In this document: piece by piece, positions 1 to 38,353 of the stretch
Layout of the letters: each line of letters opens with the position of its first letter
How positions within the stretch are numbered: the first letter of the stretch is position 1
From: a virus
Strand: one strand, 5' to 3'
Virus record (IMG/VR): IMGVR_UViG_3300045988_146023
DNA length: 40,172 nt
The notes under the pieces: model-generated
Database searches by the model: none
What the model was told of the DNA's origin: nothing
What the model saw: the letters and a program-made list of their open reading frames with translations, nothing else
Program-made: the position numbers and the translations under genes

Positions 1-99
1 CACAGAGAACGGGCAAAGGGGTTACAGTAAGTTTGCGGAAGCCTACTGTACCCCCTACTATAACATACAGTAGGAGGAAAATGCAATGATAAAACGGAA
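1..99 (+). repeat. Terminal direct repeat, copy 1 (identical to 40074-40172)
   Basis: Base-by-base comparison: cacagagaacgggcaaagg...gataaaacggaa is present at both ends. Confidence 0.97.
22..77. promoter_or_regulatory. TACAGTA boxes and a 9-bp inverted repeat overlapping the integrase SD
   Basis: TACAGTA occurs at 23-29 and 66-72, and inverted at 44-50. CCTACTGTA (42-50) and TACAGTAGG (66-74) form a perfect inverted repeat whose right arm overlaps GGAGG (73-77). Confidence 0.4.
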
Positions 100-1147
100 A
101 GATGGATTGTGGCAGGAGCGAATCTCTCTGCCGGGTATGGCAAAGCCCAAGTATTTCTATGCCAAGACCCAGAAGGAATTGAAGAAAAAGGTTGCTGCAT
201 GGAACCAGGATCAGGCGGCAGGGAAAACCTTTGAAGCCTGCGCCGATTCCTGGGACCGGTGGCATGAAGGGCAGGTGTCCTACAACGGGGCGGAAGCATA
301 TCGAGCCGCGATGAAGCGGACGAAGGAACAATTCAAGGGGCGCAGGATTGACGATATCCGGCCTGATGAAATAGACGCTTACATCCGATATCTGGCGGGG
401 AGGGGCTATGCTCGGCGGACGGTGCAACTCTATCTGGATATGCTGCGGATGATCTGGGACTATTCCATTGTCCAGGGGTGGACTACGTTCAACCCGTGCG
501 GGGCGGTAAAGCTGCCTAGTGGGCTGCCCAGGGGCCGGAGAGAGATGCCCAGCGACGAGCAGATAGAGCGCGTCAAGGCCGGGCTATTTCTCGACTTCGG
601 GTTATTCCCCTATTTCCTCCTGCATACTGGGATGCGTCGAGGGGAACTCCTGGCGCTGCGCTGGGAGGATATTGATCGGGAGCATAAGCTGATAACCGTA
701 AACAAGGCGGTTTATTTTGCTGGGAACACGCCCCAGATTAAAGCGCCGAAAACGGATAGCGGACGGCGGGAGATCGTCCTGCTGGATGCTCTGGCTGCCG
801 TTCTTCCAAAGGGTGGCAAAGGCTATGTGTTCGGCGGGGAGAAACCGCTGACAAAAATGCAGGTGCGGAAACGATGGCAGAGATGGTGCAGGGAGGCAGG
901 GCTGGCGACAGAGGAGGGCGTGGCTATGATCACGCCACACCAGCTGCGACACGCCTTCGCTACCATTCTGTTTGACGCTGGCATTGACGTCAAGGTGGCG
1001 CAAGAGCTGCTGGGACACTCCAGTATACAGGTCACGCGGGACATCTACACCCACATCCGAAAGAGCCGGATGGAGAACACGGCGGAGACGCTGAACAAGT
1101 ATTTATCTGGTGGTGCGTGTAAAAATAATGTAATTGAGCTCGCATGA
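86..1147 (+). CDS. int: Tyrosine recombinase / phage integrase
   Basis: 353 aa. The C-terminal catalytic region HQLRHAFATILFDAGIDVKVAQELLGHSSIQVTRDIYTH fits the R..H-x-x-R..Y pattern. SD GGAGG lies 8 nt upstream, and a tRNA fragment lies immediately downstream. Confidence 0.93.
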   Translation: MIKRKDGLWQERISLPGMAKPKYFYAKTQKELKKKVAAWNQDQAAGKTFEACADSWDRWHEGQVSYNGAEAYRAAMKRTKEQFKGRRIDDIRPDEIDAYIRYLAGRGYARRTVQLYLDMLRMIWDYSIVQGWTTFNPCGAVKLPSGLPRGRREMPSDEQIERVKAGLFLDFGLFPYFLLHTGMRRGELLALRWEDIDREHKLITVNKAVYFAGNTPQIKAPKTDSGRREIVLLDALAAVLPKGGKGYVFGGEKPLTKMQVRKRWQRWCREAGLATEEGVAMITPHQLRHAFATILFDAGIDVKVAQELLGHSSIQVTRDIYTHIRKSRMENTAETLNKYLSGGACKNNVIELA

Positions 1148-1168
1148 CCTGCTACGCAAGAAAACAAT

Positions 1169-1218
1169 TCTGCCTTTTAAGCAGGGTGTCCGGGGTTCGA
1201 ATCCCCGACGGGTCACCA
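1169..1218 (+). other. attP core candidate: 3' portion of a tRNA-Lys(UUU), from anticodon stem-loop to CCA
   Basis: TCTGC-CTTTTAA-GCAGG is an anticodon arm (anticodon TTT). It is followed by GTGTC, the T arm CGGGG-TTCGAAT-CCCCG, and ACGGGTC-A-CCA. The 5' side (1146-1168) has a near-complementary acceptor strand but no D arm, so this is a fragment and not a gene. Confidence 0.75.
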
Positions 1219-1371: not shown

Positions 1372-1401
1372 AGCCGCCCCGGGAGCTTATCCGGAGCGGC
1401 T
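1372..1401. terminator. Hairpin terminator downstream of the leftward accessory operon
   Basis: AGCCGC (1372-1377) pairs with GCGGCT (1396-1401), with an inner CCGG/CCGG pairing. The flanks are T/A-rich on both strands. Confidence 0.55.
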
Positions 1402-1405
1402 TTAT

Positions 1406-2167
1406 TTATGGGTTTTCGTCTGTTTTTTCAAGCTCTTCCAAAAACGGCTGAAAGTATTTCTCTTCTGCCCGCTTCCTGGCTTTCGCGGCGTCATCGATGT
1501 TTCTGTAGTGGCCGAGATGGTGGAAAGTTCCCTTGAATTTGATATATGCTTCCCACTTTTTGTCTCTTTTGCTCCAGGACACACCACGCACGCCGCTTGT
1601 ATTGGTGACTGGCGGCTTATCACCAAGGGACGAAGTTCGGGTCCCCTCTATTGTGTCTGAGGGTGTAGGCCTACTCTCTCGGTTTAGGCATCCGCAGGAT
1701 CTTGTATTGCCGCTCTTGAGATACCTTGTGGGGACGTCTATTTCATTCCCACAATCACACCGGCAATGCCAACAAGCGTTTCTTCCTCTCATCTCATCAA
1801 GCAGATAAAGAGCAGTGAGACGGCCAAACCGCTGGCCGGTTAAATCCTCACGCCCATGCTTGCCGCACGTTTGGGTGTTGCCGGATCTGAGATCCTTCGC
1901 AGTTGCAAACACCTCGCGCCCGCAATCGCACAGGCACCGCCACACAATTTTTTTGTTCTTCCGCCGGTCCGTCGGCTCTATTGCAGTCAGCATCCCAAAC
2001 TTTTGACCGGTTATATCTACCTTAGCGCCCACAGTTATTCGCCTCCCCTCGATTTCAATCCACGCTCTCCTTGCGGAGAGCGACACACCCCGATTTTCTC
2101 CGTGCCGCTTGACAACGCGGATGGCCGGGATGGACTTCCCGGCCAGTTCCGTATTCTTTTTATTCAT
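1406..2167 (-). CDS. DNA-binding protein with two Cys-rich repeats and a C-terminal AP2-type domain
   Basis: Repeats are GQKFGMLTAI..WRCLCDCGREV..LRSGNTQTCG and GQRFGRLTAL..WHCRCDCGNEI..LKSGNTRSCGC. The C-terminus GVRGVSWSKRDKKWEAYIKFKGTFHHLGHY..DAAKARKRAE resembles AP2. The start is moved to ATG 2167, which overlaps the upstream stop as ATGAATAA. Confidence 0.7.
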   Translation of the reverse strand: MNKKNTELAGKSIPAIRVVKRHGENRGVSLSARRAWIEIEGRRITVGAKVDITGQKFGMLTAIEPTDRRKNKKIVWRCLCDCGREVFATAKDLRSGNTQTCGKHGREDLTGQRFGRLTALYLLDEMRGRNACWHCRCDCGNEIDVPTRYLKSGNTRSCGCLNRESRPTPSDTIEGTRTSSLGDKPPVTNTSGVRGVSWSKRDKKWEAYIKFKGTFHHLGHYRNIDDAAKARKRAEEKYFQPFLEELEKTDENP

Positions 2168-2339
2168 CTGGATCAGGGGCAAACTGGTCCAGGGTTGCCT
2201 GAAAATCTGGATCCAGTTCCAGGTAGCGCTCAAGGAATTCGGTGTTGGTGCAGGGGGCGAGTTCAGCGTGGACCGCCTCCCGGATGTCATCATTCATCAA
2301 CTCCACGATCTGGTCCCAGTAGTTGTTGTAAGTTTTCAT
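2160..2339 (-). CDS. Hypothetical acidic protein (59 aa)
   Basis: The ORF has the SD AAAAAGGAGGG upstream of ATG 2339 and is translationally coupled to the next gene. Confidence 0.6.
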   Translation of the reverse strand: MKTYNNYWDQIVELMNDDIREAVHAELAPCTNTEFLERYLELDPDFQATLDQFAPDPDE

Positions 2340-2585: not shown

Positions 2586-2750
2586 TCATCGGGCGGGTAT
2601 AAACTTAATCTCTTTGGCAAAAGCAACGAGCGCGTCTCTTGCTGCCTCGTGTGCCTCTTTGAGCAGTGGGCGGTCCGGGTTGTTGCTCTTTAGCTCGAAG
2701 AGCTCGCATTCTACCTCGGAGATCAGGTCAAGCAGTTCTTTCATTGTCAT
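2586..2750 (-). CDS. Hypothetical protein (54 aa)
   Basis: MTMKELLDLISEVECELFELK... is preceded by SD AAAGGA. It is the real part of the longer 233-aa low-complexity ORF in the track. Confidence 0.5.
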   Translation of the reverse strand: MTMKELLDLISEVECELFELKSNNPDRPLLKEAHEAARDALVAFAKEIKFIPAR

Positions 2751-2765
2751 AGTATTTTTTCCTTT

Positions 2766-2833
2766 CTGCCCTGCCATCGTCAGCACTGGTGGGGCGGTTC
2801 CAGTGGACCCCCGAAGGGGTTTCGGCTGTTGGG
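2766..2833 (-). ncRNA. Type II hammerhead ribozyme (HH-B)
   Basis: On the minus strand: AACAGCC-GAAA-CCCC-UUCG-GGGG-U-C^CACUGG-(10-nt loop)-CCAGUG-CUGACGA-U-GGCAGGGC. Core positions are CUGACGA 2783-2777, GAAA 2823-2820, U16.1 2807 and C17 2806. Loop I GCCC (2795-2792) is complementary to GGGC (2771-2768). Confidence 0.8.
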
Positions 2834-2865
2834 TGAGTCCCTGCTTTTCATGTCCTGCCGCCTCC

Positions 2866-3369
2866 TTACGCTGTAGCGGTTTCGATGTCCTGGGATCCAC
2901 GGGAGCGGAATGCCTGACTGCCGTACTTGGTGCGGATTTCCGCCATGGAGGACTTGCCACGGTACCAGCGGGAACCGGCCTCGGCGTGGTGCCAGTACCA
3001 CTTGGCTTTATTTTTGGACCACTTGCAGCCAGCTGCCTTGAGCTTGTCCTTGTTGGCCTTGGTGTTGCCGCCGATCCAGAGCCAGGACCCGCAAAGCTCG
3101 ATCTCAAGGCCGTCCAGGCGGAGCAGGATGTCCAGGATCTGCCGGAACTCTTCGGCGGTCTCGGTGGTGGTCTTCGTTTTGCCGGTGGTGTCGGCCTGGG
3201 CCTGGGCGTTGTGCTGGCGCTTGAGGATCTCAAAGAGGGCGTCGTGTTCGTTGTTGATCTCCTGCATTGCCTCGGTGCTGCCGCCACAGTCTGGGTGGTA
3301 CTGCATGGCCAGACGGCGATAGGCCTTCTTGAGCTCGTCCAGGGTCTTGATATTCTCGAAGTATTTCAT
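2866..3369 (-). CDS. J-domain (DnaJ-like) protein
   Basis: The N-terminus LDELKKAYRRLAMQYHPDCGG..EAMQEINNEHDALF contains the HPD tripeptide. The C-terminal domain is Trp/Lys-rich (CGSWLWIGGNTKANKDKLKAAGCKWSKNKAKWYWH). SD GAGAGGAG is present. Confidence 0.85.
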   Translation of the reverse strand: MKYFENIKTLDELKKAYRRLAMQYHPDCGGSTEAMQEINNEHDALFEILKRQHNAQAQADTTGKTKTTTETAEEFRQILDILLRLDGLEIELCGSWLWIGGNTKANKDKLKAAGCKWSKNKAKWYWHHAEAGSRWYRGKSSMAEIRTKYGSQAFRSRGSQDIETATA

Positions 3370-3389
3370 GGGGTGTTCTCCTCTCTGTT

Positions 3390-3467
3390 GCGTCGGCCTG
3401 CCTCATCAGCGCCGGGAGGCCGTTCCTCGGCGGACGCCCTGAAGGGCGTTTCGGCTGTTTACCACGC
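3390..3467 (-). ncRNA. Type II hammerhead ribozyme (HH-A)
   Basis: On the minus strand: AACAGCC-GAAA-CGCCC-UUCA-GGGCG-U-C^CGCCG..CGGCG-CUGAUGA-GGCAGGCCG. Core positions are CUGAUGA 3409-3403, GAAA 3452-3449, U16.1 3434 and C17 3433. Loop I CGGCCU (3422-3417) is complementary to AGGCCG (3399-3394). Confidence 0.85.
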
Positions 3468-3684
3468 TACCACCCAGGGAAGCCCGCTTCCGTTCCATCT
3501 GTTGTGGTAGATTGCCGCAGTCTTTATGTCTAGGTATGTAAATTTGCTCTTTGCGCGTTTTCCGCCACAGTAAACGGGTATGCCTTGCTTTTTTAAGTTC
3601 ATTTACCTTTTTCAGCGCGTTGCGCCGATCTTCGTACCATGCGAAATTATGAACCATATCCACGGTAATAGTGTTATGCGCCAT
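3406..3684 (-). CDS. Hypothetical basic protein (92 aa) whose 3' end overlaps HH-A
   Basis: SD AAGGAGGAG lies upstream of ATG 3684 (MAHNTITVDMVHNFAWYEDRR...). The last ~25 codons run through the ribozyme, and the stop codon is the UGA inside CUGAUGA. Confidence 0.55.
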   Translation of the reverse strand: MAHNTITVDMVHNFAWYEDRRNALKKVNELKKARHTRLLWRKTRKEQIYIPRHKDCGNLPQQMERKRASLGGSVVNSRNALQGVRRGTASRR

Positions 3685-3922: not shown

Positions 3923-3952
3923 ATGGTAGCACGTTACAACGTGCAATGTCAA
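3923..3952 (-). promoter_or_regulatory. Leftward promoter with a palindromic operator in its spacer
   Basis: On the minus strand: TTGACA (3952-3947), an 18-nt spacer, then TACCAT (3928-3923). The spacer contains the perfect palindrome GCACGTT-AC-AACGTGC (3929-3944). Confidence 0.55.
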
Positions 3953-4536: not shown

Positions 4537-4923
4537 ATGGCACAGACAAGAAAGGTAGAATCCGCTGAAAAGCTGATGAAATATATAGATGATTTCATTA
4601 AATACTGCGAGGAAAACGGTGAAATCCCTTCCAACTATAACCTCTGTAAATTCCTGTCGGTGAGTGCTGCGACACTGAGTAGGTATGAGGCGGGGGATGG
4701 GAATTATAAAGGATACGAAATCCCATTCAAAAACCTGCGGCAATACAGAGAGCACCGGCTGCTGAGTATGCTAGAGGGCGATCCCAAGAGAGCAGCAGCA
4801 GCGATCTTCCAGCTGAAACAGCCATTTAATGGAGGCTATGTGGAGTCCACGCAGCAGGTAGACCAGGGCGCAACCGTTACCCTCAAGATCGAGGGAGTGG
4901 GCGGAGTCGATGCTTTCAAGTAG
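4537..4923 (+). CDS. terS: Terminase small subunit
   Basis: 128 aa. The N-terminal HTH-like region (IDDFIKYCEENGEIPSNYNLCKFLSVSAATLSRY) and AAAAIFQLKQPFNGGY are typical of Firmicutes phage small terminases. It sits at the head of the packaging module. Confidence 0.7.
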   Translation: MAQTRKVESAEKLMKYIDDFIKYCEENGEIPSNYNLCKFLSVSAATLSRYEAGDGNYKGYEIPFKNLRQYREHRLLSMLEGDPKRAAAAIFQLKQPFNGGYVESTQQVDQGATVTLKIEGVGGVDAFK

Positions 4924-5653: not shown

Positions 5654-5729
5654 GGTTCCCTATCTCAAGAGGCAGAGATCCCGGCTCATAACCGGGAATA
5701 TCCTGGTTCGAGGCCAGGGGGAACCACCA
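5654..5729 (+). tRNA. tRNA-Met (anticodon CAT), or tRNA-Ile2 if the C is lysidinylated
   Basis: Hand-folded cloverleaf. Acceptor GGTTCCC/GGGAACC; D stem TCTC/GAGA with loop AAGAGGCA; anticodon arm CCCGG-CTCATAA-CCGGG; variable loop AATAT; T arm CCTGG-TTCGAGG-CCAGG; discriminator A; encoded CCA. G1:C72 argues against an initiator. Confidence 0.85.
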
Positions 5730-5901: not shown

Positions 5902-5936
5902 AGACCTCCCTGGGAATGGCTGGGGAGAAGGACCGA

Positions 5937-5982
5937 ACGGGGTCAACTTGTTGGAATTTCCGACAGGTTGGCCCCGTTTTTG
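5937..5982 (+). terminator. Strong rho-independent terminator 35 nt upstream of terL
   Basis: A 14-bp stem (5937-5950 with 5964-5977, two G-U pairs) followed by TTTTT (5977-5981). Confidence 0.8.
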
Positions 5983-6016: not shown

Positions 6017-7477
6017 ATGAGCAAGGTCCAGAAGAAGGACGTGGTCTGGGACCCGGGAGAAGCCAACGCGAAGCAGAAGCTGTTCTATCTCTCCCGAACA
6101 ACCTATACCGCTTATGGCGGGGCCAAGGGCGGCGGCAAGACCCATGCCGTTCGCATCAAGGCTGTGGGTGGGGCCATTGCCAACCCGGGCATCAAGATCC
6201 TCATCATGCGGCGGACCTATCCAGAATTGGAGGAAAACCACATCCGGCCCATTGTGAAGATGGTGCCGCCTGCGCTGGCCTCCTACAACGCCACCACCCA
6301 CCTGATGACCTTTCACAACGGGAGCACCATCAAGTTTGGCCATTGGAGCGGCGACGCCTCGGAGGATGAGTACAACGGCCTGGAATATGACTGGATTTTC
6401 ATCGACGAGGCCACGCAGTTTTCCGAGCGGAGTTTCAATTTCCTGGGCGGCTGCTTGCGCGGCGTGAACCAGTTCCCAAAGCGGATGTACCTCACCTGCA
6501 ACCCCGGCGGCGTCGGCCACCGGTGGGTGAAGCGGCTGTTCATTGACCGGCAGTTCAAGCAGAACTGCGACAACCCGGAAGAGAACGAGAATCCGGAGGA
6601 TTATACCTTCATCCCGGCGACGGTGGAGGACAACTACCACCTGATGGCCTCTTCCCCGGGGTATGTGCGGATGCTGGCGAACATGCCGGAGGATAAGCGG
6701 CGGGCCTACCGGTACGGCGATTGGAATGCCATCGGCGGGAACTTTTTCCCGGAATTCTCTACCGCGACCCACGTTGTGCAGCCGTTTCGCATCCCGGAGC
6801 ATTGGCAGCGGTACCGCAGTTTCGACTACGGCCTGGACATGTTCGCCTGCTTCTGGTGGGCGGTAGACGAAGACGGAAGGTCTTGGTGCTACCGGGAATT
6901 CACCCACAAGGGCCTCATTGTCAAAGAGGCGGCAGAGAAGATCCACGAGTTGACGCTGCCGGGAGAGCATGTTTCTGCCACCTATGCCCCGCCGGATATG
7001 TGGAGCCGGCAAAAAGACACCGGCAAGACCATGGCGGAGGTGTTCATGCTGAACCAGGTTGGCCTGATCCGGGCGGACAACAACCGGGTGCAGGGACACC
7101 TGATGATGAAGGAAGCGTTGGCCCCAAGGCCGCTGCGCGACCCCTATGTGCAGGCTATGTTCCGCCGGGAAGACGGGACGGCGCCGGACAAGCTGCCGGG
7201 CCTTATGTTCTTCGATGCCTGCAAAGAGGTTATCGGGGATATCCAGGATATCCAGGCGGACGAGAAAAACCCCAACGACTGTGCCAAGGACCCCCACGAA
7301 GTGACCCACACGGTGGACGGGGTGCGGTATTACTGCATTTCCCGTGTGCTGCCTGCACAGCCGGAGAAGGACGAGAAGAAGGTTGTCCTGTATGACGATG
7401 ACGAGGACAGCATGGAGAGCTACGAGGAGTTCATGGTAGGAAGCGGGGCCCCCAGCCCCAGCTATCTTGCGTTGTGA
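6017..7477 (+). CDS. terL: Terminase large subunit
   Basis: 486 aa. Walker A is YGGAKGGGKTH and Walker B is WIFIDEATQF. The C-terminal half is nuclease-like with conserved acidic residues. Confidence 0.92.
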   Translation: MSKVQKKDVVWDPGEANAKQKLFYLSRTTYTAYGGAKGGGKTHAVRIKAVGGAIANPGIKILIMRRTYPELEENHIRPIVKMVPPALASYNATTHLMTFHNGSTIKFGHWSGDASEDEYNGLEYDWIFIDEATQFSERSFNFLGGCLRGVNQFPKRMYLTCNPGGVGHRWVKRLFIDRQFKQNCDNPEENENPEDYTFIPATVEDNYHLMASSPGYVRMLANMPEDKRRAYRYGDWNAIGGNFFPEFSTATHVVQPFRIPEHWQRYRSFDYGLDMFACFWWAVDEDGRSWCYREFTHKGLIVKEAAEKIHELTLPGEHVSATYAPPDMWSRQKDTGKTMAEVFMLNQVGLIRADNNRVQGHLMMKEALAPRPLRDPYVQAMFRREDGTAPDKLPGLMFFDACKEVIGDIQDIQADEKNPNDCAKDPHEVTHTVDGVRYYCISRVLPAQPEKDEKKVVLYDDDEDSMESYEEFMVGSGAPSPSYLAL

Positions 7478-7487
7478 GGAGGACACT

Positions 7488-7787
7488 ATGGAAACCATTC
7501 TGTTTGGCATCGGAACTGCGCTTGCCCTTGTGTGTTTTGTCGTTCTGCTGGTGCTGGAGCACAAGAACGAAAAGCACCTGGATGAGTTGAGCACGCGCCT
7601 GGCCAGCATCTCCCTTAAAGTGCGAAGCCTTGAGAAGAAGGTAGAACACTTGGAACAGGTTTGGAAAGCGGAAGAGGGTGACCGAGAGACCCGGAAGAGA
7701 CAGGAGGAACTGCTGTTTACCGGGATCAACAACATCCTCAATTACGACATGAACGCAGCCAGAAAGGCAGGCGGTGACGATGCCTAA
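7488..7787 (+). CDS. Membrane-anchored coiled-coil protein (BhlA/UviB-like architecture)
   Basis: An N-terminal TM helix (ILFGIGTALALVCFVVLLVL) is followed by a charged coiled coil. SD GAGGAGG precedes ATG 7488. Confidence 0.6.
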   Translation: METILFGIGTALALVCFVVLLVLEHKNEKHLDELSTRLASISLKVRSLEKKVEHLEQVWKAEEGDRETRKRQEELLFTGINNILNYDMNAARKAGGDDA

Positions 7788-9552
7788 GAGAGAGAAAAAG
7801 CCGGACACTTCCGGCCTGAACACCTACTCCCTGGGGAAGGAGAGCAAGCTGCCGGACTGCGGGACGGCGTGGAAGTTGTACGAGCGAGGACTGGACTTCA
7901 ACTCCAGCATCAATCTGGAGGACACTGTCCGCGTCAACGAGAACTTCTTCATCGGGAAACAGTGGGAGGGCGTGATTTCCAACGGGCTTCCCACTCCCGT
8001 GTTCAACTTCCTAAAGCGGGTGTGCTGCTTCACGGTGGCGACCATCACCAGCGACAACATCAAGGTCAACGCTTCCCCACTGTCTGCGACGCCGAACACC
8101 ACGTCGCTTGTGGAGCCGGTTCGGATCATCAACGAGGAACTGGATGCGCTGACGGAGTTGAACAACATCCCGTCGCTGATGCGTGAGTTCGCCAGAAATG
8201 CCGCTGTGGATGGGGACGGGTGCCTTTACACCTGGTGGGACCCGGACGCGGAGACCGGGCAGGACGCCAAGGGGTGTATCCGAACCGAGATTGTAGAGAA
8301 TCTCCGGGTCCATTTCGGCAACCCCAACGACCGAGATGTGCAGAGCCAGCCGTGGATCATTCTGGAGCGGCGGGAAATTATCTCCGCAGCCCAGGCAGAG
8401 GCCAAGGAGAACGGCTTCGAGACCTGGCGGAACATCGGCGGGGACGGCGACAACACCAACCCGGACGCGGCCAAAGAGACCACGGACAAGGTGACCACCA
8501 TCCTGCTCTTCTGGCGGGACACCAAGACCCGCCACATCTGGGCGTACAAGTGCGCCCGGGGGTCCTCCATCCGGGAGCCGTGGGATTTGGGGATCAAGCT
8601 ATATCCCATTTCCTGGCTGAACTGGGACTACATCCAGGACTGTTTCCACGGGCAGGCCATGATTACCGGTCTGATTCCCAATCAGATTTTCGTAAATAAG
8701 CTCTGGGCCATGTCGCAGCTGTCCCTGATGACCACGGCATTTCCCAAGGTCGTGTACGACGCGACCAGGGTCGGAAAATGGGACAACCGGATTGGCGCTG
8801 CCATCGGGATCCAGGGCGGCGACGTGAACAACGTAGCCAAGATCATTGACCCGGCCAGCATCTCCCCGCAAATCTCCCAGTTCATTCAATTGGCGGTGGA
8901 GGAGACGGAGCAGAGTTTGGGCGCAACATCCGTTGCCCTGGGCGACACGCGGCCTGACAACACATCGGCCATCATTGCCTTGCAGCGGGCTGCCTCCACC
9001 CCGTCGGAGATTACAAAGCAAAACCTGTATAAGTCCATTGAGGACCTATACAGGATCTACATCGAGTTTATGGGCGAGTATTACGGCAAACGGTATGTGG
9101 ACATGACCACGCCGGAAGAAGTCCGGCAGGTCTATGACTTCATTGGACAGGAGACCCCGGCAGAGATTCCGATGCAGTTTGACTTTTCCCAGCTGAAAGA
9201 CATGCCCATGCACATCAAACTGGACATCGGGGCCAGTTCGTACTACTCGGAAATCGCCTCCATCCAGACGTTGGACAACCTGTTGAAGATGGGGAAGATC
9301 GACACCGTTCAGTATCTGGAGCGAATTCCCGACGGCTACATCCCAGGACGGAGAGAGCTCATCAACGAACTGAAAGAGCAGCAGAGAAACGCCATGGCTA
9401 TGCAGGCGCAGATGCAGCAGGGCGTCCCCCAGAACCCCGGCGGGGCCCCGGTGGCGGGAGACACCACAAAGGACGAGATCCCGACGGGAGGCGGATATTC
9501 CGCTTTGCAACGAAAGGTCAACGAGACCGGGACCACCGCAGGGATGGTTTGA
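7774..9552 (+). CDS. Portal protein (putative)
   Basis: 592 aa, located immediately after terL, with a Gln/Gly-rich C-terminal tail. The start is GTG 7774 or ATG 7780. The call rests on position, size and general resemblance only. Confidence 0.65.
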   Translation: MTMPKREKKPDTSGLNTYSLGKESKLPDCGTAWKLYERGLDFNSSINLEDTVRVNENFFIGKQWEGVISNGLPTPVFNFLKRVCCFTVATITSDNIKVNASPLSATPNTTSLVEPVRIINEELDALTELNNIPSLMREFARNAAVDGDGCLYTWWDPDAETGQDAKGCIRTEIVENLRVHFGNPNDRDVQSQPWIILERREIISAAQAEAKENGFETWRNIGGDGDNTNPDAAKETTDKVTTILLFWRDTKTRHIWAYKCARGSSIREPWDLGIKLYPISWLNWDYIQDCFHGQAMITGLIPNQIFVNKLWAMSQLSLMTTAFPKVVYDATRVGKWDNRIGAAIGIQGGDVNNVAKIIDPASISPQISQFIQLAVEETEQSLGATSVALGDTRPDNTSAIIALQRAASTPSEITKQNLYKSIEDLYRIYIEFMGEYYGKRYVDMTTPEEVRQVYDFIGQETPAEIPMQFDFSQLKDMPMHIKLDIGASSYYSEIASIQTLDNLLKMGKIDTVQYLERIPDGYIPGRRELINELKEQQRNAMAMQAQMQQGVPQNPGGAPVAGDTTKDEIPTGGGYSALQRKVNETGTTAGMV

Positions 9553-38082: not shown

Positions 38083-38353
38083 ACGCAGCGAACAGGTGAT
38101 CACAAAATGGGAGATGATTGCCATAGAGGGTATTCTCAGTAGCCTATTTCGCTTCCCCGTACCCGAGGCCGGTAAACCAACCCGGCTTTCCGATGCGTTG
38201 AAACACAGGCCGTTGCTGTGAGTGAGGATGCAAGGGGGATAGAAGCATGGTGACTCATGCGTCTATGGTTCAAACCAAACCGTAGTTTGCACCCTACATC
38301 GGGTTCAAGAACGGAAGAAGATGTCCGGGAGTCACACCGGGCATTTTCTTTGC

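What the first reader, a model, noticed from the sequence alone, without database searches (positions are those of the whole stretch)
3390..3467. Type II hammerhead ribozyme (HH-A) embedded in the 3' end of an ORF, upstream of the J-domain gene
The minus strand reads ...GCGUGGUAAACAGCC-GAAA-CGCCC-UUCA-GGGCG-U-C^CGCCG-A-GGA-ACGGCC-UCC-CGGCG-CUGAUGA-GGC-AGGCCG-ACGC. Every invariant hammerhead position is present and correctly placed:
- C3-U4-G5-A6-U7-G8-A9 = 3409..3403.
- G12-A13-A14 = 3452..3450.
- A15.1:U16.1 = 3449:3434.
- C17 = 3433, so scission is predicted between 3433 and 3432.

The helices also fit:
- Helix III is 5 bp closed by UUCA (3448-3435).
- Helix I is CGCCG/CGGCG (3432-3428 with 3414-3410) and continues past a bulged A.
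- Helix II is the open helix (GGC 3402-3400 with GCC 3455-3453), which gives type II topology.
- Loop I CGGCCU (3422-3417) is complementary to AGGCCG (3399-3394) just 3' of helix II, consistent with a loop-I to 3'-tail pseudoknot.

The stop codon of ORF 3406-3684 is U4-G5-A6 of the core, and cleavage lies 24 nt upstream of it. The cleaved upstream mRNA would therefore lack a stop codon and become a trans-translation substrate. This couples ribozyme activity to the fate of the upstream protein.
Basis: partly seen in the sequence, partly recalled or inferred. Interest (0 to 1): 0.9.

Follow-up and report, generated by a model that had tools for sequence, protein, structure and literature searches.

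The report
Prophage hammerhead ribozymes flanking J-domain gene
This is a genuine but ordinary type II hammerhead self-cleaving RNA sitting between two genes of a gut-bacterial prophage, one of a pair that brackets a J-domain chaperone gene; the proposed link to a missing stop codon comes from a one-base frameshift found only in this contig.

Summary
The hammerhead is real. Rfam's type II model scores 47.3 bits (threshold 37) at 3392-3456(-). A second type II hammerhead (HH-B, 2765-2827(-)) lies just after the J-domain gene, so the pair brackets that gene.

The "ORF ends inside the core, giving a non-stop mRNA" idea fails. The 92-aa ORF exists only because this contig has A6 at 3589-3594. Six related contigs from other samples have A5, and their conserved 74-aa protein ends at TAA 3461-3459, 3 nt before the ribozyme.

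Among 133 viral type II hammerheads, the upstream ORF normally stops right at the ribozyme edge (median gap 0 nt). Only 2 have solely an ORF that reads past the cleavage site. CUGAUGA carries UGA-UGA in one frame, so any read-through in that frame must stop there.

The best reading is intercistronic processing of a polycistronic accessory operon, as described for prophages in 2011. In relatives the same J gene is flanked by twister or twister-sister ribozymes, and mosaic breakpoints coincide with ribozyme edges.

It is a new member of a known kind and of low interest.

The parts
3392..3456 (-). HH-A, a type II hammerhead ribozyme. Helix II 5' strand 3455-3453; G12-A14 3452-3450; helix III hairpin 3449-3434; C17 3433; helix I hairpin 3432-3410; core CUGAUGA 3409-3403; helix II 3' strand 3402-3400; pseudoknot tail 3399-3394.
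   Evidence: Rfam RF02276 47.3 bits, above the gathering score of 37. My structure-aware scan found it. Covariation in helix I and the pseudoknot.
3432..3433 (-). Predicted HH-A scission site, 3' of C17 (3433).
   Evidence: Position relative to the core. Cleavage itself was not tested.
2765..2827 (-). HH-B, a second type II hammerhead. Core CUGACGA (N7=C), one extra U after A9, C17 at 2806, helix III closed by UUCG, 4-bp pseudoknot GCCC/GGGC.
   Evidence: Rfam 32.3 bits, below the gathering score of 37; E=3.9e-4 in the 2.1-kb scan. Conserved in L003, L004, L006, L007, L021 and L022 with two compensatory helix I pairs and C/U variation at N7. The extra base after A9 occurs in 79 of 156 type II hammerheads.
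2866..3369 (-). J-domain protein gene (167 aa) bracketed by HH-A and HH-B. Double cleavage would release a 627-nt RNA (3432 to 2806).
   Evidence: Pfam DnaJ PF00226 E=1.2e-8; phrog_15863 E=3.9e-50.
3459..3684 (-). Upstream gene (74 aa in relatives), frameshifted in this contig. Its native stop TAA 3461-3459 lies 3 nt 5' of HH-A and 26 nt 5' of the scission site.
   Evidence: Homologues P0002-P0004; DNA alignment with L025-L030; translation of the second frame.
3589..3594 (-). A6 homopolymer run. It carries one more A than the A5 found in all six related contigs, and this creates the 92-aa read-through ORF 3406-3684.
   Evidence: Seen in a single assembly, HMP scaffold_966.
2586..2750 (-). Next cistron (54 aa). 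Its start codon is 14 nt past the end of HH-B's tail. This gene is variable among relatives.
3923..3952 (-). Promoter-like site at the head of the minus-strand accessory operon (consensus match only).
   Evidence: TTGACA-18-TACCAT, 10 of 12 matches with TG.
1372..1401 (-). Terminator-like hairpin at the end of the operon, after the AP2/HNH gene (consensus match only).

Best explanation
HH-A is a functional type II hammerhead that fills the intercistronic gap between a small phage gene (native stop TAA 3461-3459) and the J-domain gene (ATG 3369). It lies in a roughly 2.5-kb minus-strand accessory operon of a gut Clostridia prophage. Together with HH-B it cuts the polycistronic transcript co-transcriptionally. 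The upstream mRNA keeps its stop codon and ends 26 nt later in the GC-rich helix III hairpin with a 2',3'-cyclic phosphate. The J-domain mRNA begins with a 5'-OH, the helix I hairpin and the pseudoknot, followed by a free ribosome-binding site. Each cistron's stability and translation thereby become independent of its neighbours, a natural 'insulator' for gene cassettes that are shuffled between phages. Shown here: ribozyme identity, structure and covariation, intercistronic placement, pairing around the J gene, and coincidence with mosaic boundaries. Inferred: actual cleavage, and the effect on mRNA stability and translation.
For: Rfam score above threshold. Compensatory changes in helix I and the pseudoknot: 95.5% of cells paired against about 40% with slid partners. 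HH-B is conserved with covariation. All genes from 3952 to 1406 are co-oriented with the ribozymes, between an integrase and the terminase genes. The layout is tight and general: among 133 viral type II hammerheads the stop-to-ribozyme gap has a median of 0 nt and the ribozyme-to-next-start gap a median of 20 nt. The cleaved upstream fragments are predicted to end in the helix III hairpin. The downstream ribosome-binding sites are unpaired in the centroid structures (for HH-B also in the MFE), though the low-frequency MFE for the HH-A leader pairs part of its RBS. The same J gene is flanked by twister-P1-like ribozymes on both sides in L013, followed by twister-sister in L016 and L158, and followed by twister-P5 in L019. 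This suggests that self-cleavage at this position matters rather than the particular fold. Homology blocks between relatives start or end within a few nt of the ribozyme edges (3456, 3385, 2757). The literature reports multiple hammerheads flanking single genes in prophages near integrases that cleave in vitro and in vivo (PMC3088659). Type II hammerheads are active in vivo in D. vulgaris (PMC8782182).
Against: No cleavage data exist for this RNA. HH-B is below Rfam's gathering score (32.3 against 37). Minimum-free-energy folding does not distinguish either ribozyme from shuffled sequence (z = -0.65 and -0.08). The biological role of bacterial and phage hammerheads is still unsettled in the literature (PMC6765202). 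Several J-gene loci (L017, L018, L023, L024) have no detectable ribozyme, and most close relatives lack HH-A, so the ribozyme is dispensable for J-gene function.
Confidence: 0.7

Rival explanations
1. One reading: the ribozyme lies inside the 3' end of a real gene, so cleavage 24 nt before the stop codon creates a non-stop mRNA. tmRNA trans-translation then tags the upstream protein, coupling ribozyme activity to that protein's fate.
For: In the window as sequenced, a 92-aa frame (3406-3684) does run through the ribozyme and stops at U4-G5-A6. If the A6 allele is real, ribosomes in that frame would reach a cleaved 3' end.
Against: The frame depends on one extra A (3589-3594) that is absent from six related contigs from other samples, including a 77%-identical orthologue. 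Protein conservation follows the other frame, which ends at TAA 3461-3459. The A6 allele is seen in one assembly only. Only 2 of 133 viral type II hammerheads have solely an ORF reading past C17. The UGA-UGA in CUGAUGA makes a stop at U4-G5-A6 automatic for that frame.
Confidence: 0.03
2. The paired hammerheads produce an RNA with 5'-OH and 2',3'-cyclic-phosphate ends (3432 to 2806, 627 nt). RtcB, or a hybrid HH-B/HH-A ribozyme, then ligates it into a circular J-domain mRNA, or splices the J gene out of the transcript.
For: HH-A and HH-B share an identical helix II (GCC/GGC) and 5' flank (ACAGCCGAAAC). The 5' fragment of one could therefore dock on the 3' fragment of the other. The end chemistry matches RtcB substrates (established knowledge).
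Against: Perreault et al. looked for spliced or circular products from tandem prophage hammerheads and found none (PMC3088659). Most relatives have only one ribozyme next to the J gene. Helix II is only 3 bp, so the fragments should dissociate.
Confidence: 0.07
3. The ribozymes matter mainly at the DNA level. Their conserved halves are microhomology joints for cassette exchange, or they are selfish passengers of mobile cassettes, with little consequence for expression.
For: Mosaic block edges coincide with ribozyme edges. L025 and L030 carry a chimeric ribozyme (HH-A's 5' flank with HH-B's body) and lack the J gene, as expected from recombination within the shared 12-nt AACAGCCGAAAC. L005 keeps only the 3' half of HH-B.
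Against: Intact cores, compensatory substitutions in helix I and the pseudoknot, and replacement by unrelated ribozyme classes at the same position all indicate selection on RNA catalysis rather than on DNA sequence. This role is compatible with the main explanation rather than exclusive of it.
Confidence: 0.15
4. Cleavage is regulated by translation. A ribosome terminating at a stop codon that abuts the ribozyme, or one translating the 23-codon mini-ORF through HH-B, unfolds it. Processing would then depend on translation of the upstream cistron.
For: The stop codon abuts helix II in most viral type II hammerheads (median gap 0 nt). A strong SD+ATG (2850-2848) opens a frame through HH-B that ends at the core UGA, and the two substitutions upstream of HH-B seen in relatives are synonymous in that frame.
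Against: The tight packing may simply reflect genome compaction. The relatives that carry the mini-ORF are about 95% identical, so conservation is uninformative. Hammerheads usually cleave within seconds, probably before ribosomes arrive (inference).
Confidence: 0.08

Closest known systems
Type II hammerhead ribozymes of prophages (Rfam RF02276; Perreault et al. 2011, PMC3088659), e.g. the tandem arrangements in Clostridium scindens and around ardA in Agrobacterium tumefaciens
   Same: Same core, open helix II, loop I/3'-tail pseudoknot and short (3-bp) helix II. Located near an integrase in a prophage, with two ribozymes flanking a single accessory gene in a polycistronic unit.
   Different: The flanked gene here is a J-domain protein, an association I did not find in the literature. 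This particular instance has not been tested for cleavage.
Desulfovibrio vulgaris type II hammerheads validated in vivo by cyPhyRNA-seq (PMC8782182)
   Same: Type II topology, next to phage-like and hypothetical genes, two of them close together.
   Different: Those were shown to cleave in vivo and in vitro. Here there is only sequence and comparative evidence.
[quoted passage not shown]
   Same: Relatives of this locus carry twister-P1-like, twister-P5 or twister-sister ribozymes in the same position next to the same J gene, which fits the published interchangeability.
   Different: These are different folds. The window itself has only hammerheads.
Synthetic ribozyme insulators such as RiboJ (Lou et al. 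2012; cited from my own knowledge, not checked with the tools)
   Same: A self-cleaving ribozyme just upstream of an RBS removes the upstream RNA context and leaves a 5' hairpin. This is the mechanism I infer here.
   Different: RiboJ is an engineered satellite-RNA hammerhead. The natural function of the ribozyme here is unproven.

Membership tests
Hammerhead ribozyme, type II (RF02276) | Invariant core: C3 U4 G5 A6 N7 G8 A9, G12 A13 A14, A15.1:U16.1, H17 | tested here: met
   HH-A: all positions present at the stated coordinates. HH-B: met, with N7=C.
Hammerhead ribozyme, type II (RF02276) | Three helices around the core with helices I and III closed by loops and helix II open; no mispair next to the core | tested here: met
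   For HH-A, 10.1-11.1 is G-C, 1.1-2.1 is C-G and 15.1-16.1 is A-U. HH-B has one extra U after A9, a variant seen in 79 of 156 type II hammerheads.
Hammerhead ribozyme, type II (RF02276) | Covariance-model score at or above Rfam's gathering score (37 bits) | tested here: met
   HH-A scores 47.3 bits. HH-B does not reach the threshold: 32.3 bits, and its L003 variant 36.3 bits.
Hammerhead ribozyme, type II (RF02276) | Pseudoknot of at least 4 bp between loop I and the nucleotides just 3' of helix II | tested here: met
   HH-A has 6 bp (5 if the helix I extension keeps U3417). Four pseudoknot pairs change on both sides among 5 sequences of the same architecture. At class level, 42% have at least 5 bp against 6% with permuted tails. 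HH-B has 4 bp.
Hammerhead ribozyme, type II (RF02276) | Compensatory substitutions in the helices among relatives | tested here: met
   Helix I of HH-A: 4 pairs with changes on both sides. Helix I of HH-B: CACUGG/CCAGUG versus UACCGG/CCGGUA. Helices II and III are invariant in the small sample, so they say nothing either way.
Hammerhead ribozyme, type II (RF02276) | Mg2+-dependent self-cleavage 3' of H17, giving 2',3'-cyclic phosphate and 5'-OH ends | not testable with these tools
   Requires in vitro transcription or end-specific RNA-seq.
Ribozyme-flanked gene arrangement in prophages (Perreault 2011, Fig. 3) | Two or more same-strand self-cleaving ribozymes bracketing one gene or a short gene block within a co-oriented operon near phage genes | tested here: met
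   The order is HH-A, J gene, HH-B on the minus strand, between the integrase and the terminase genes. The same layout with twisters occurs in L013.
   The frame is created by a private 1-nt insertion, and the native stop is 5' of the ribozyme. Only 2 of 133 surveyed hammerheads have solely an ORF reading past C17.

The most novel reading that the evidence does not exclude
Self-cleaving ribozymes of several unrelated folds are interchangeable 'punctuation' at the borders of a mobile J-domain gene cassette in gut Clostridia phages. The folds seen are type II hammerhead, twister-P1, twister-P5, twister-sister and a candidate type III hammerhead. Each is packed with essentially no slack between the upstream stop codon and the next RBS. 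They would act both as natural expression insulators, with cleavage about 26 nt past the stop so that termination stays normal, and as recombination joints through which cassettes are gained and lost.
Probability: 0.35. Interest if true: 0.55.

Novelty: new member of a known kind. Interest (0 to 1): 0.22.

Why it matters
The ribozyme itself adds one more instance to a family described in 2011 whose biological role is still open. What is useful here is mostly negative. It shows how a single homopolymer indel can produce an attractive but false 'ribozyme inside an ORF' story. It also shows that the hammerhead core always offers UGA-UGA to one reading frame. On the positive side, the locus is a compact natural test case for the unanswered question of why phages place self-cleaving ribozymes between accessory genes: one gene, two ribozymes, and relatives that carry other ribozyme classes or none.

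Tried and rejected
- Minimum-free-energy folding with shuffles. Helices I and III are recovered, but z-scores of -0.65 and -0.08 do not discriminate, so I rejected this as a test for short GC-rich ribozymes.
- Pfam and PHROGs on the upstream ORF in both start variants. No family was found. The weak UPF0561 hit (E=0.007, below cutoff) was ignored.
I replaced them with my own scanner.
- Type III hammerhead candidate after the J gene in the L009 clade. All core positions and helices parse by hand. Rfam gives nothing at E<=1 and only a forced 17-bit fit to the type II model in a focused scan, so it stays a candidate.
- Programmed +1 frameshift at CUU-AAA-AAA-G as an explanation for A6. I considered and rejected this because all relatives are in frame with A5.
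- Literature searches for a J-domain/ribozyme link, for ribozyme/trans-translation coupling in bacteria and for later work on hammerheads processing polycistronic prophage transcripts. Nothing relevant was found.
- The 2024 pseudoknot-hammerhead crystal structure (PMC11300833) is a different variant in which the pseudoknot replaces helix II.
- A genome-collection scan for the J protein gave only two loci, so the host is assigned only roughly. The evidence for gut Clostridia/Oscillospiraceae is short hits to Faecalibacterium phage Mushu, an HMP scaffold and a Clostridiales MAG.
- A scan for the hairpin motif that replaces HH-A in relatives found only 6 exact copies. It remains unresolved.

Full report
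**1. The observation**

On the minus strand, window 3456-3392 reads AGCCGAAACGCCCUUCAGGGCGUCCGCCGAGGAACGGCCUCCCGGCGCUGAUGAGGCAGGCCGAC.
- CUGAUGA is at 3409-3403, and G12-A14 at 3452-3450.
- A15.1:U16.1 is 3449:3434, and C17 is 3433.
- Helix III is CGCCC-UUCA-GGGCG.
- Helix I is CGCCG/CGGCG, extended by GG/CC past a bulged A.
- Helix II is the open helix, GCC/GGC.
- Loop I CGGCCU (3422-3417) is complementary to the tail AGGCCG (3399-3394).

Rfam's type II hammerhead model (RF02276) scores 47.3 bits against a gathering score of 37, with E=8.5e-07 for the whole window on both strands. Minimum-free-energy folding recovers helices I and III but is not better than shuffled sequence. That is expected for a short GC-rich RNA with a pseudoknot, so it is uninformative.

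Five non-identical hammerheads with exactly HH-A's segment lengths align without gaps: the window, L005, Dulem virus 39 and two from L084. On that alignment 95.5% of cells form standard pairs, against about 40% when partners are slid. Four helix I pairs and four pseudoknot pairs change on both sides. Across 156 type II hammerheads, 42% have at least 5 contiguous loop I/tail base pairs, against 6% when tails are permuted among ribozymes. The ribozyme call, its topology and its pseudoknot are therefore confirmed.

**2. A second ribozyme and the gene between them**

A permissive scan finds a second type II hammerhead at 2765-2827(-), HH-B, at 32.3 bits.
- Its core is CUGACGA. Position 7 is the one free core position.
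- Helix III is closed by UUCG.
- It has one extra U after A9, a feature present in 79 of 156 type II hammerheads.
- It is conserved at the same place in six related viral contigs, with two compensatory helix I pairs (CACUGG/CCAGUG versus UACCGG/CCGGUA) and C/U variation at position 7.

HH-A and HH-B bracket a 167-aa J-domain protein gene at 2866-3369(-) (Pfam DnaJ E=1.2e-8; phrog_15863 E=3.9e-50). Each ribozyme ends shortly before the next ribosome-binding site. The J gene's ATG is 23 nt after HH-A, and the next gene's ATG (2750) is 14 nt after HH-B.

**3. Context**

The window is a phage or prophage:
- integrase 86-1147(+), abutted by tRNA-Lys
- small terminase-like gene 4537-4923
- large terminase 6017-7477
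- portal 7774-9552

Between the integrase and the packaging genes lies a co-oriented minus-strand block running from about 3952 to 1406. In order it holds a small Cys-rich ORF, the 74-aa gene, HH-A, the J gene, HH-B, a 54-aa ORF, a 56-aa ORF, an AcrIC5-like ORF (Pfam PF22147 E=3e-10) and an AP2/HNH protein. A promoter-like site sits at its head and a terminator-like hairpin at its end.

The contig is identical to an HMP metagenome scaffold. Short DNA matches point to Faecalibacterium phage Mushu and a lemur-gut phage, both of which carry type II hammerheads in intergenic positions.

**4. The 'ORF ends inside the core' claim**

The 92-aa frame 3406-3684 has only four database relatives. One is the identical protein from the same scaffold. 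The other three share residues 1-32 and then continue as ...QGIPVYCGGKRAKSKF...PWVVAW. That sequence is exactly the second frame open in the window, at 3459-3602.

At the DNA level, six contigs from independent samples all have five A's where the window has six, at 3589-3594. One of them is an orthologue only 77% identical. Their ORF ends GCG-UGG-UAA immediately before the ribozyme. L026 carries an HH-A identical to the window's behind the unshifted ORF.

The native stop is therefore TAA 3461-3459, which is 3 nt upstream of the ribozyme and 26 nt upstream of the scission site. The read-through frame is a private homopolymer insertion, either a sequencing or assembly error or a very recent mutation. 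I cannot tell which without the reads.

That the shifted frame stops at U4-G5-A6 is automatic, because CUGAUGA presents UGA-UGA in one frame.

**5. Is an ORF reading through the ribozyme ever the norm?**

I pulled 120 stretches from IMG/VR with a core pattern and scanned them with a structure-aware script. Among 133 distinct type II hammerheads:
- 102 have a same-strand ORF of at least 60 codons whose stop lies within 120 nt upstream of the ribozyme.
- The gap between stop codon and ribozyme has a median of 0 nt and an interquartile range of -1 to +4.
- The next start codon follows helix II by a median of 20 nt.
- Only 2 have solely an ORF that reads past C17. Ten more are ambiguous.

The normal design is stop codon, ribozyme, pseudoknot tail, RBS. 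From my own knowledge (not checked with the tools), trans-translation needs an essentially empty mRNA channel. A 26-nt 3' extension ending in a hairpin should therefore allow ordinary termination.

**6. Relatives of the locus**

I fetched 22 viral loci and one bacterial MAG that encode the J protein.

| Loci | J protein identity | What flanks the J gene |
|---|---|---|
| L003, L004, L006, L007, L021, L022 | 95-99% | HH-B downstream; no HH-A upstream |
| L005 | 95% | HH-A upstream (48.6 bits) and a 5'-truncated HH-B remnant |
| L013 | 66% | twister-P1-like ribozymes on both sides (61.2 and 52 bits; E=1.5e-11 and 6.5e-9; below that family's high gathering score of 67.2) |
| L016 and MAG L158 | 59% and 61% | twister-sister right after the gene (84.6 and 87.4 bits) |
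| L019 | 57% | twister-P5 about 160 nt downstream |
| L009-L012, L014, L015, L020 | about 67% | hand-parsed type III hammerhead candidate that Rfam does not score |
| L017, L018, L023, L024 | 45-63% | nothing detected |

(L008, also in the 67% clade, ends about 25 nt after the J stop codon, so it could not be assessed.)

Homology blocks between relatives begin or end within a few nucleotides of the ribozyme edges. L005 shares 3456..2849, starting at HH-A's first base. L003, L006 and L007 share 3385..2757, ending at HH-B's tail.

L025, L027 and L030 have the 74-aa gene followed directly by a chimeric ribozyme (HH-A's 5' flank with HH-B's body) and no J gene. That is the product expected from recombination within the 12 nt (AACAGCCGAAAC) that the two ribozymes share.

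**7. Mechanism**

The best-supported reading is the one proposed for prophage hammerheads in 2011 (PMC3088659) and still considered unproven (PMC6765202). In that reading, constitutive co-transcriptional self-cleavage chops a polycistronic accessory transcript into single-gene mRNAs.

In this window the upstream fragment would end in the helix III hairpin with a cyclic phosphate. The J mRNA would start with a 5'-OH, helix I and the pseudoknot, then an RBS that is unpaired in the centroid fold, although the low-frequency MFE pairs part of it.

Three things fit an 'insulator' role that makes a shuffled cassette's expression independent of whatever lies upstream: the interchangeability of ribozyme classes, the zero-slack packing, and the coincidence with mosaic joints. 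A secondary role as recombination joints is also possible. Cleavage and its consequences are inferred, not shown.

**8. Comparison and verdict**

HH-A meets every sequence-testable criterion for RF02276. HH-B meets the descriptor criteria but not Rfam's score threshold. The paired arrangement matches Perreault's Figure 3 class. The trans-translation coupling fails its defining test.

This is a new member of a known kind. What remains of interest is the J-gene cassette as a compact test case for ribozyme function in phages.

Noticed in passing
window 2780-2850 (-): A 23-codon mini-ORF (MKSRDSPNSRNPFGGPLEPPHQC*) starts with a strong SD (AAGGAGG, overlapping the J stop) and ATG 2850. It reads straight through HH-B and stops at the core UGA. 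The two substitutions that relatives carry upstream of HH-B are synonymous in this frame; the helix I changes inside HH-B are not. It could be a remnant of a displaced gene start, or a leader whose translation competes with ribozyme folding.
   Followed up: partly
L031-L150 (survey), e.g. L001 3987/4000, L002 2237: In viral type II hammerheads the upstream stop codon abuts or overlaps the first base of helix II (median gap 0 nt, IQR -1 to +4, n=102), and the next start codon follows by a median of 20 nt. I did not find this zero-slack layout stated in the papers I read.
   Followed up: partly
L003 ~2430-2475; L019 ~2445-2480; L153 7050-7090 (-): A portable intercistronic motif, AAGGUUCUGGCGGGGCAUCCUCAAAAGCCCCACCCCA, occupies the HH-A slot upstream of the J gene in relatives that lack HH-A. 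It recurs, diverged, in a locus whose J protein is only 57% identical, and it also recurs in front of an unrelated gene. No Rfam match at E<=1. Function unknown.
   Followed up: partly
L013 2410-2470 and 3022-3073; L016 3053-3133; L158 3510-3590; L019 3152-3215: The same J-domain gene is flanked or followed by twister-P1-like, twister-sister or twister-P5 ribozymes in other phages and in a Clostridiales MAG.
   Followed up: yes
L009-L012, L014, L015, L020, ~3018-3070: Right after the J stop lies CUCCGUC^CGCCGG...CCGGCG-CUGAUGA-GC-AAGA-GC-GAAA-CGGAG. This is a complete hammerhead core with helix III open (type III) and a 2-bp helix II. Rfam does not score it.
   Followed up: partly
window 5903-5950 (+): A gut-2 RNA (RF02990, 47 bits against a gathering score of 39.8) lies about 65 nt upstream of the large terminase gene. 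The same element is present in L005 and L007. tRNA-Met (CAT) is at 5654-5729 just before it.
   Followed up: no
window 2160-2339 (-): A small ORF matches the anti-CRISPR family AcrIC5 (PF22147, E=3e-10) in the same ribozyme-punctuated operon. Together with the AP2/HNH gene it is absent from L007 and L030.
   Followed up: no
window 1146-1218 (+): tRNA-Lys (UUU) starts at the last bases of the integrase ORF (86-1147). It lies between the integrase and the rest of the phage genes, which is an unusual placement.
   Followed up: no
window 38185-38350 (+): A sub-threshold match to FuFi-1 RNA (37.2 bits against a gathering score of 59.6, E=1.2e-4).
   Followed up: no
L077 893-4792 (-): One IMG/VR contig carries eight type II hammerhead pattern matches within 4 kb, an extreme case of ribozyme punctuation.
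   Followed up: no
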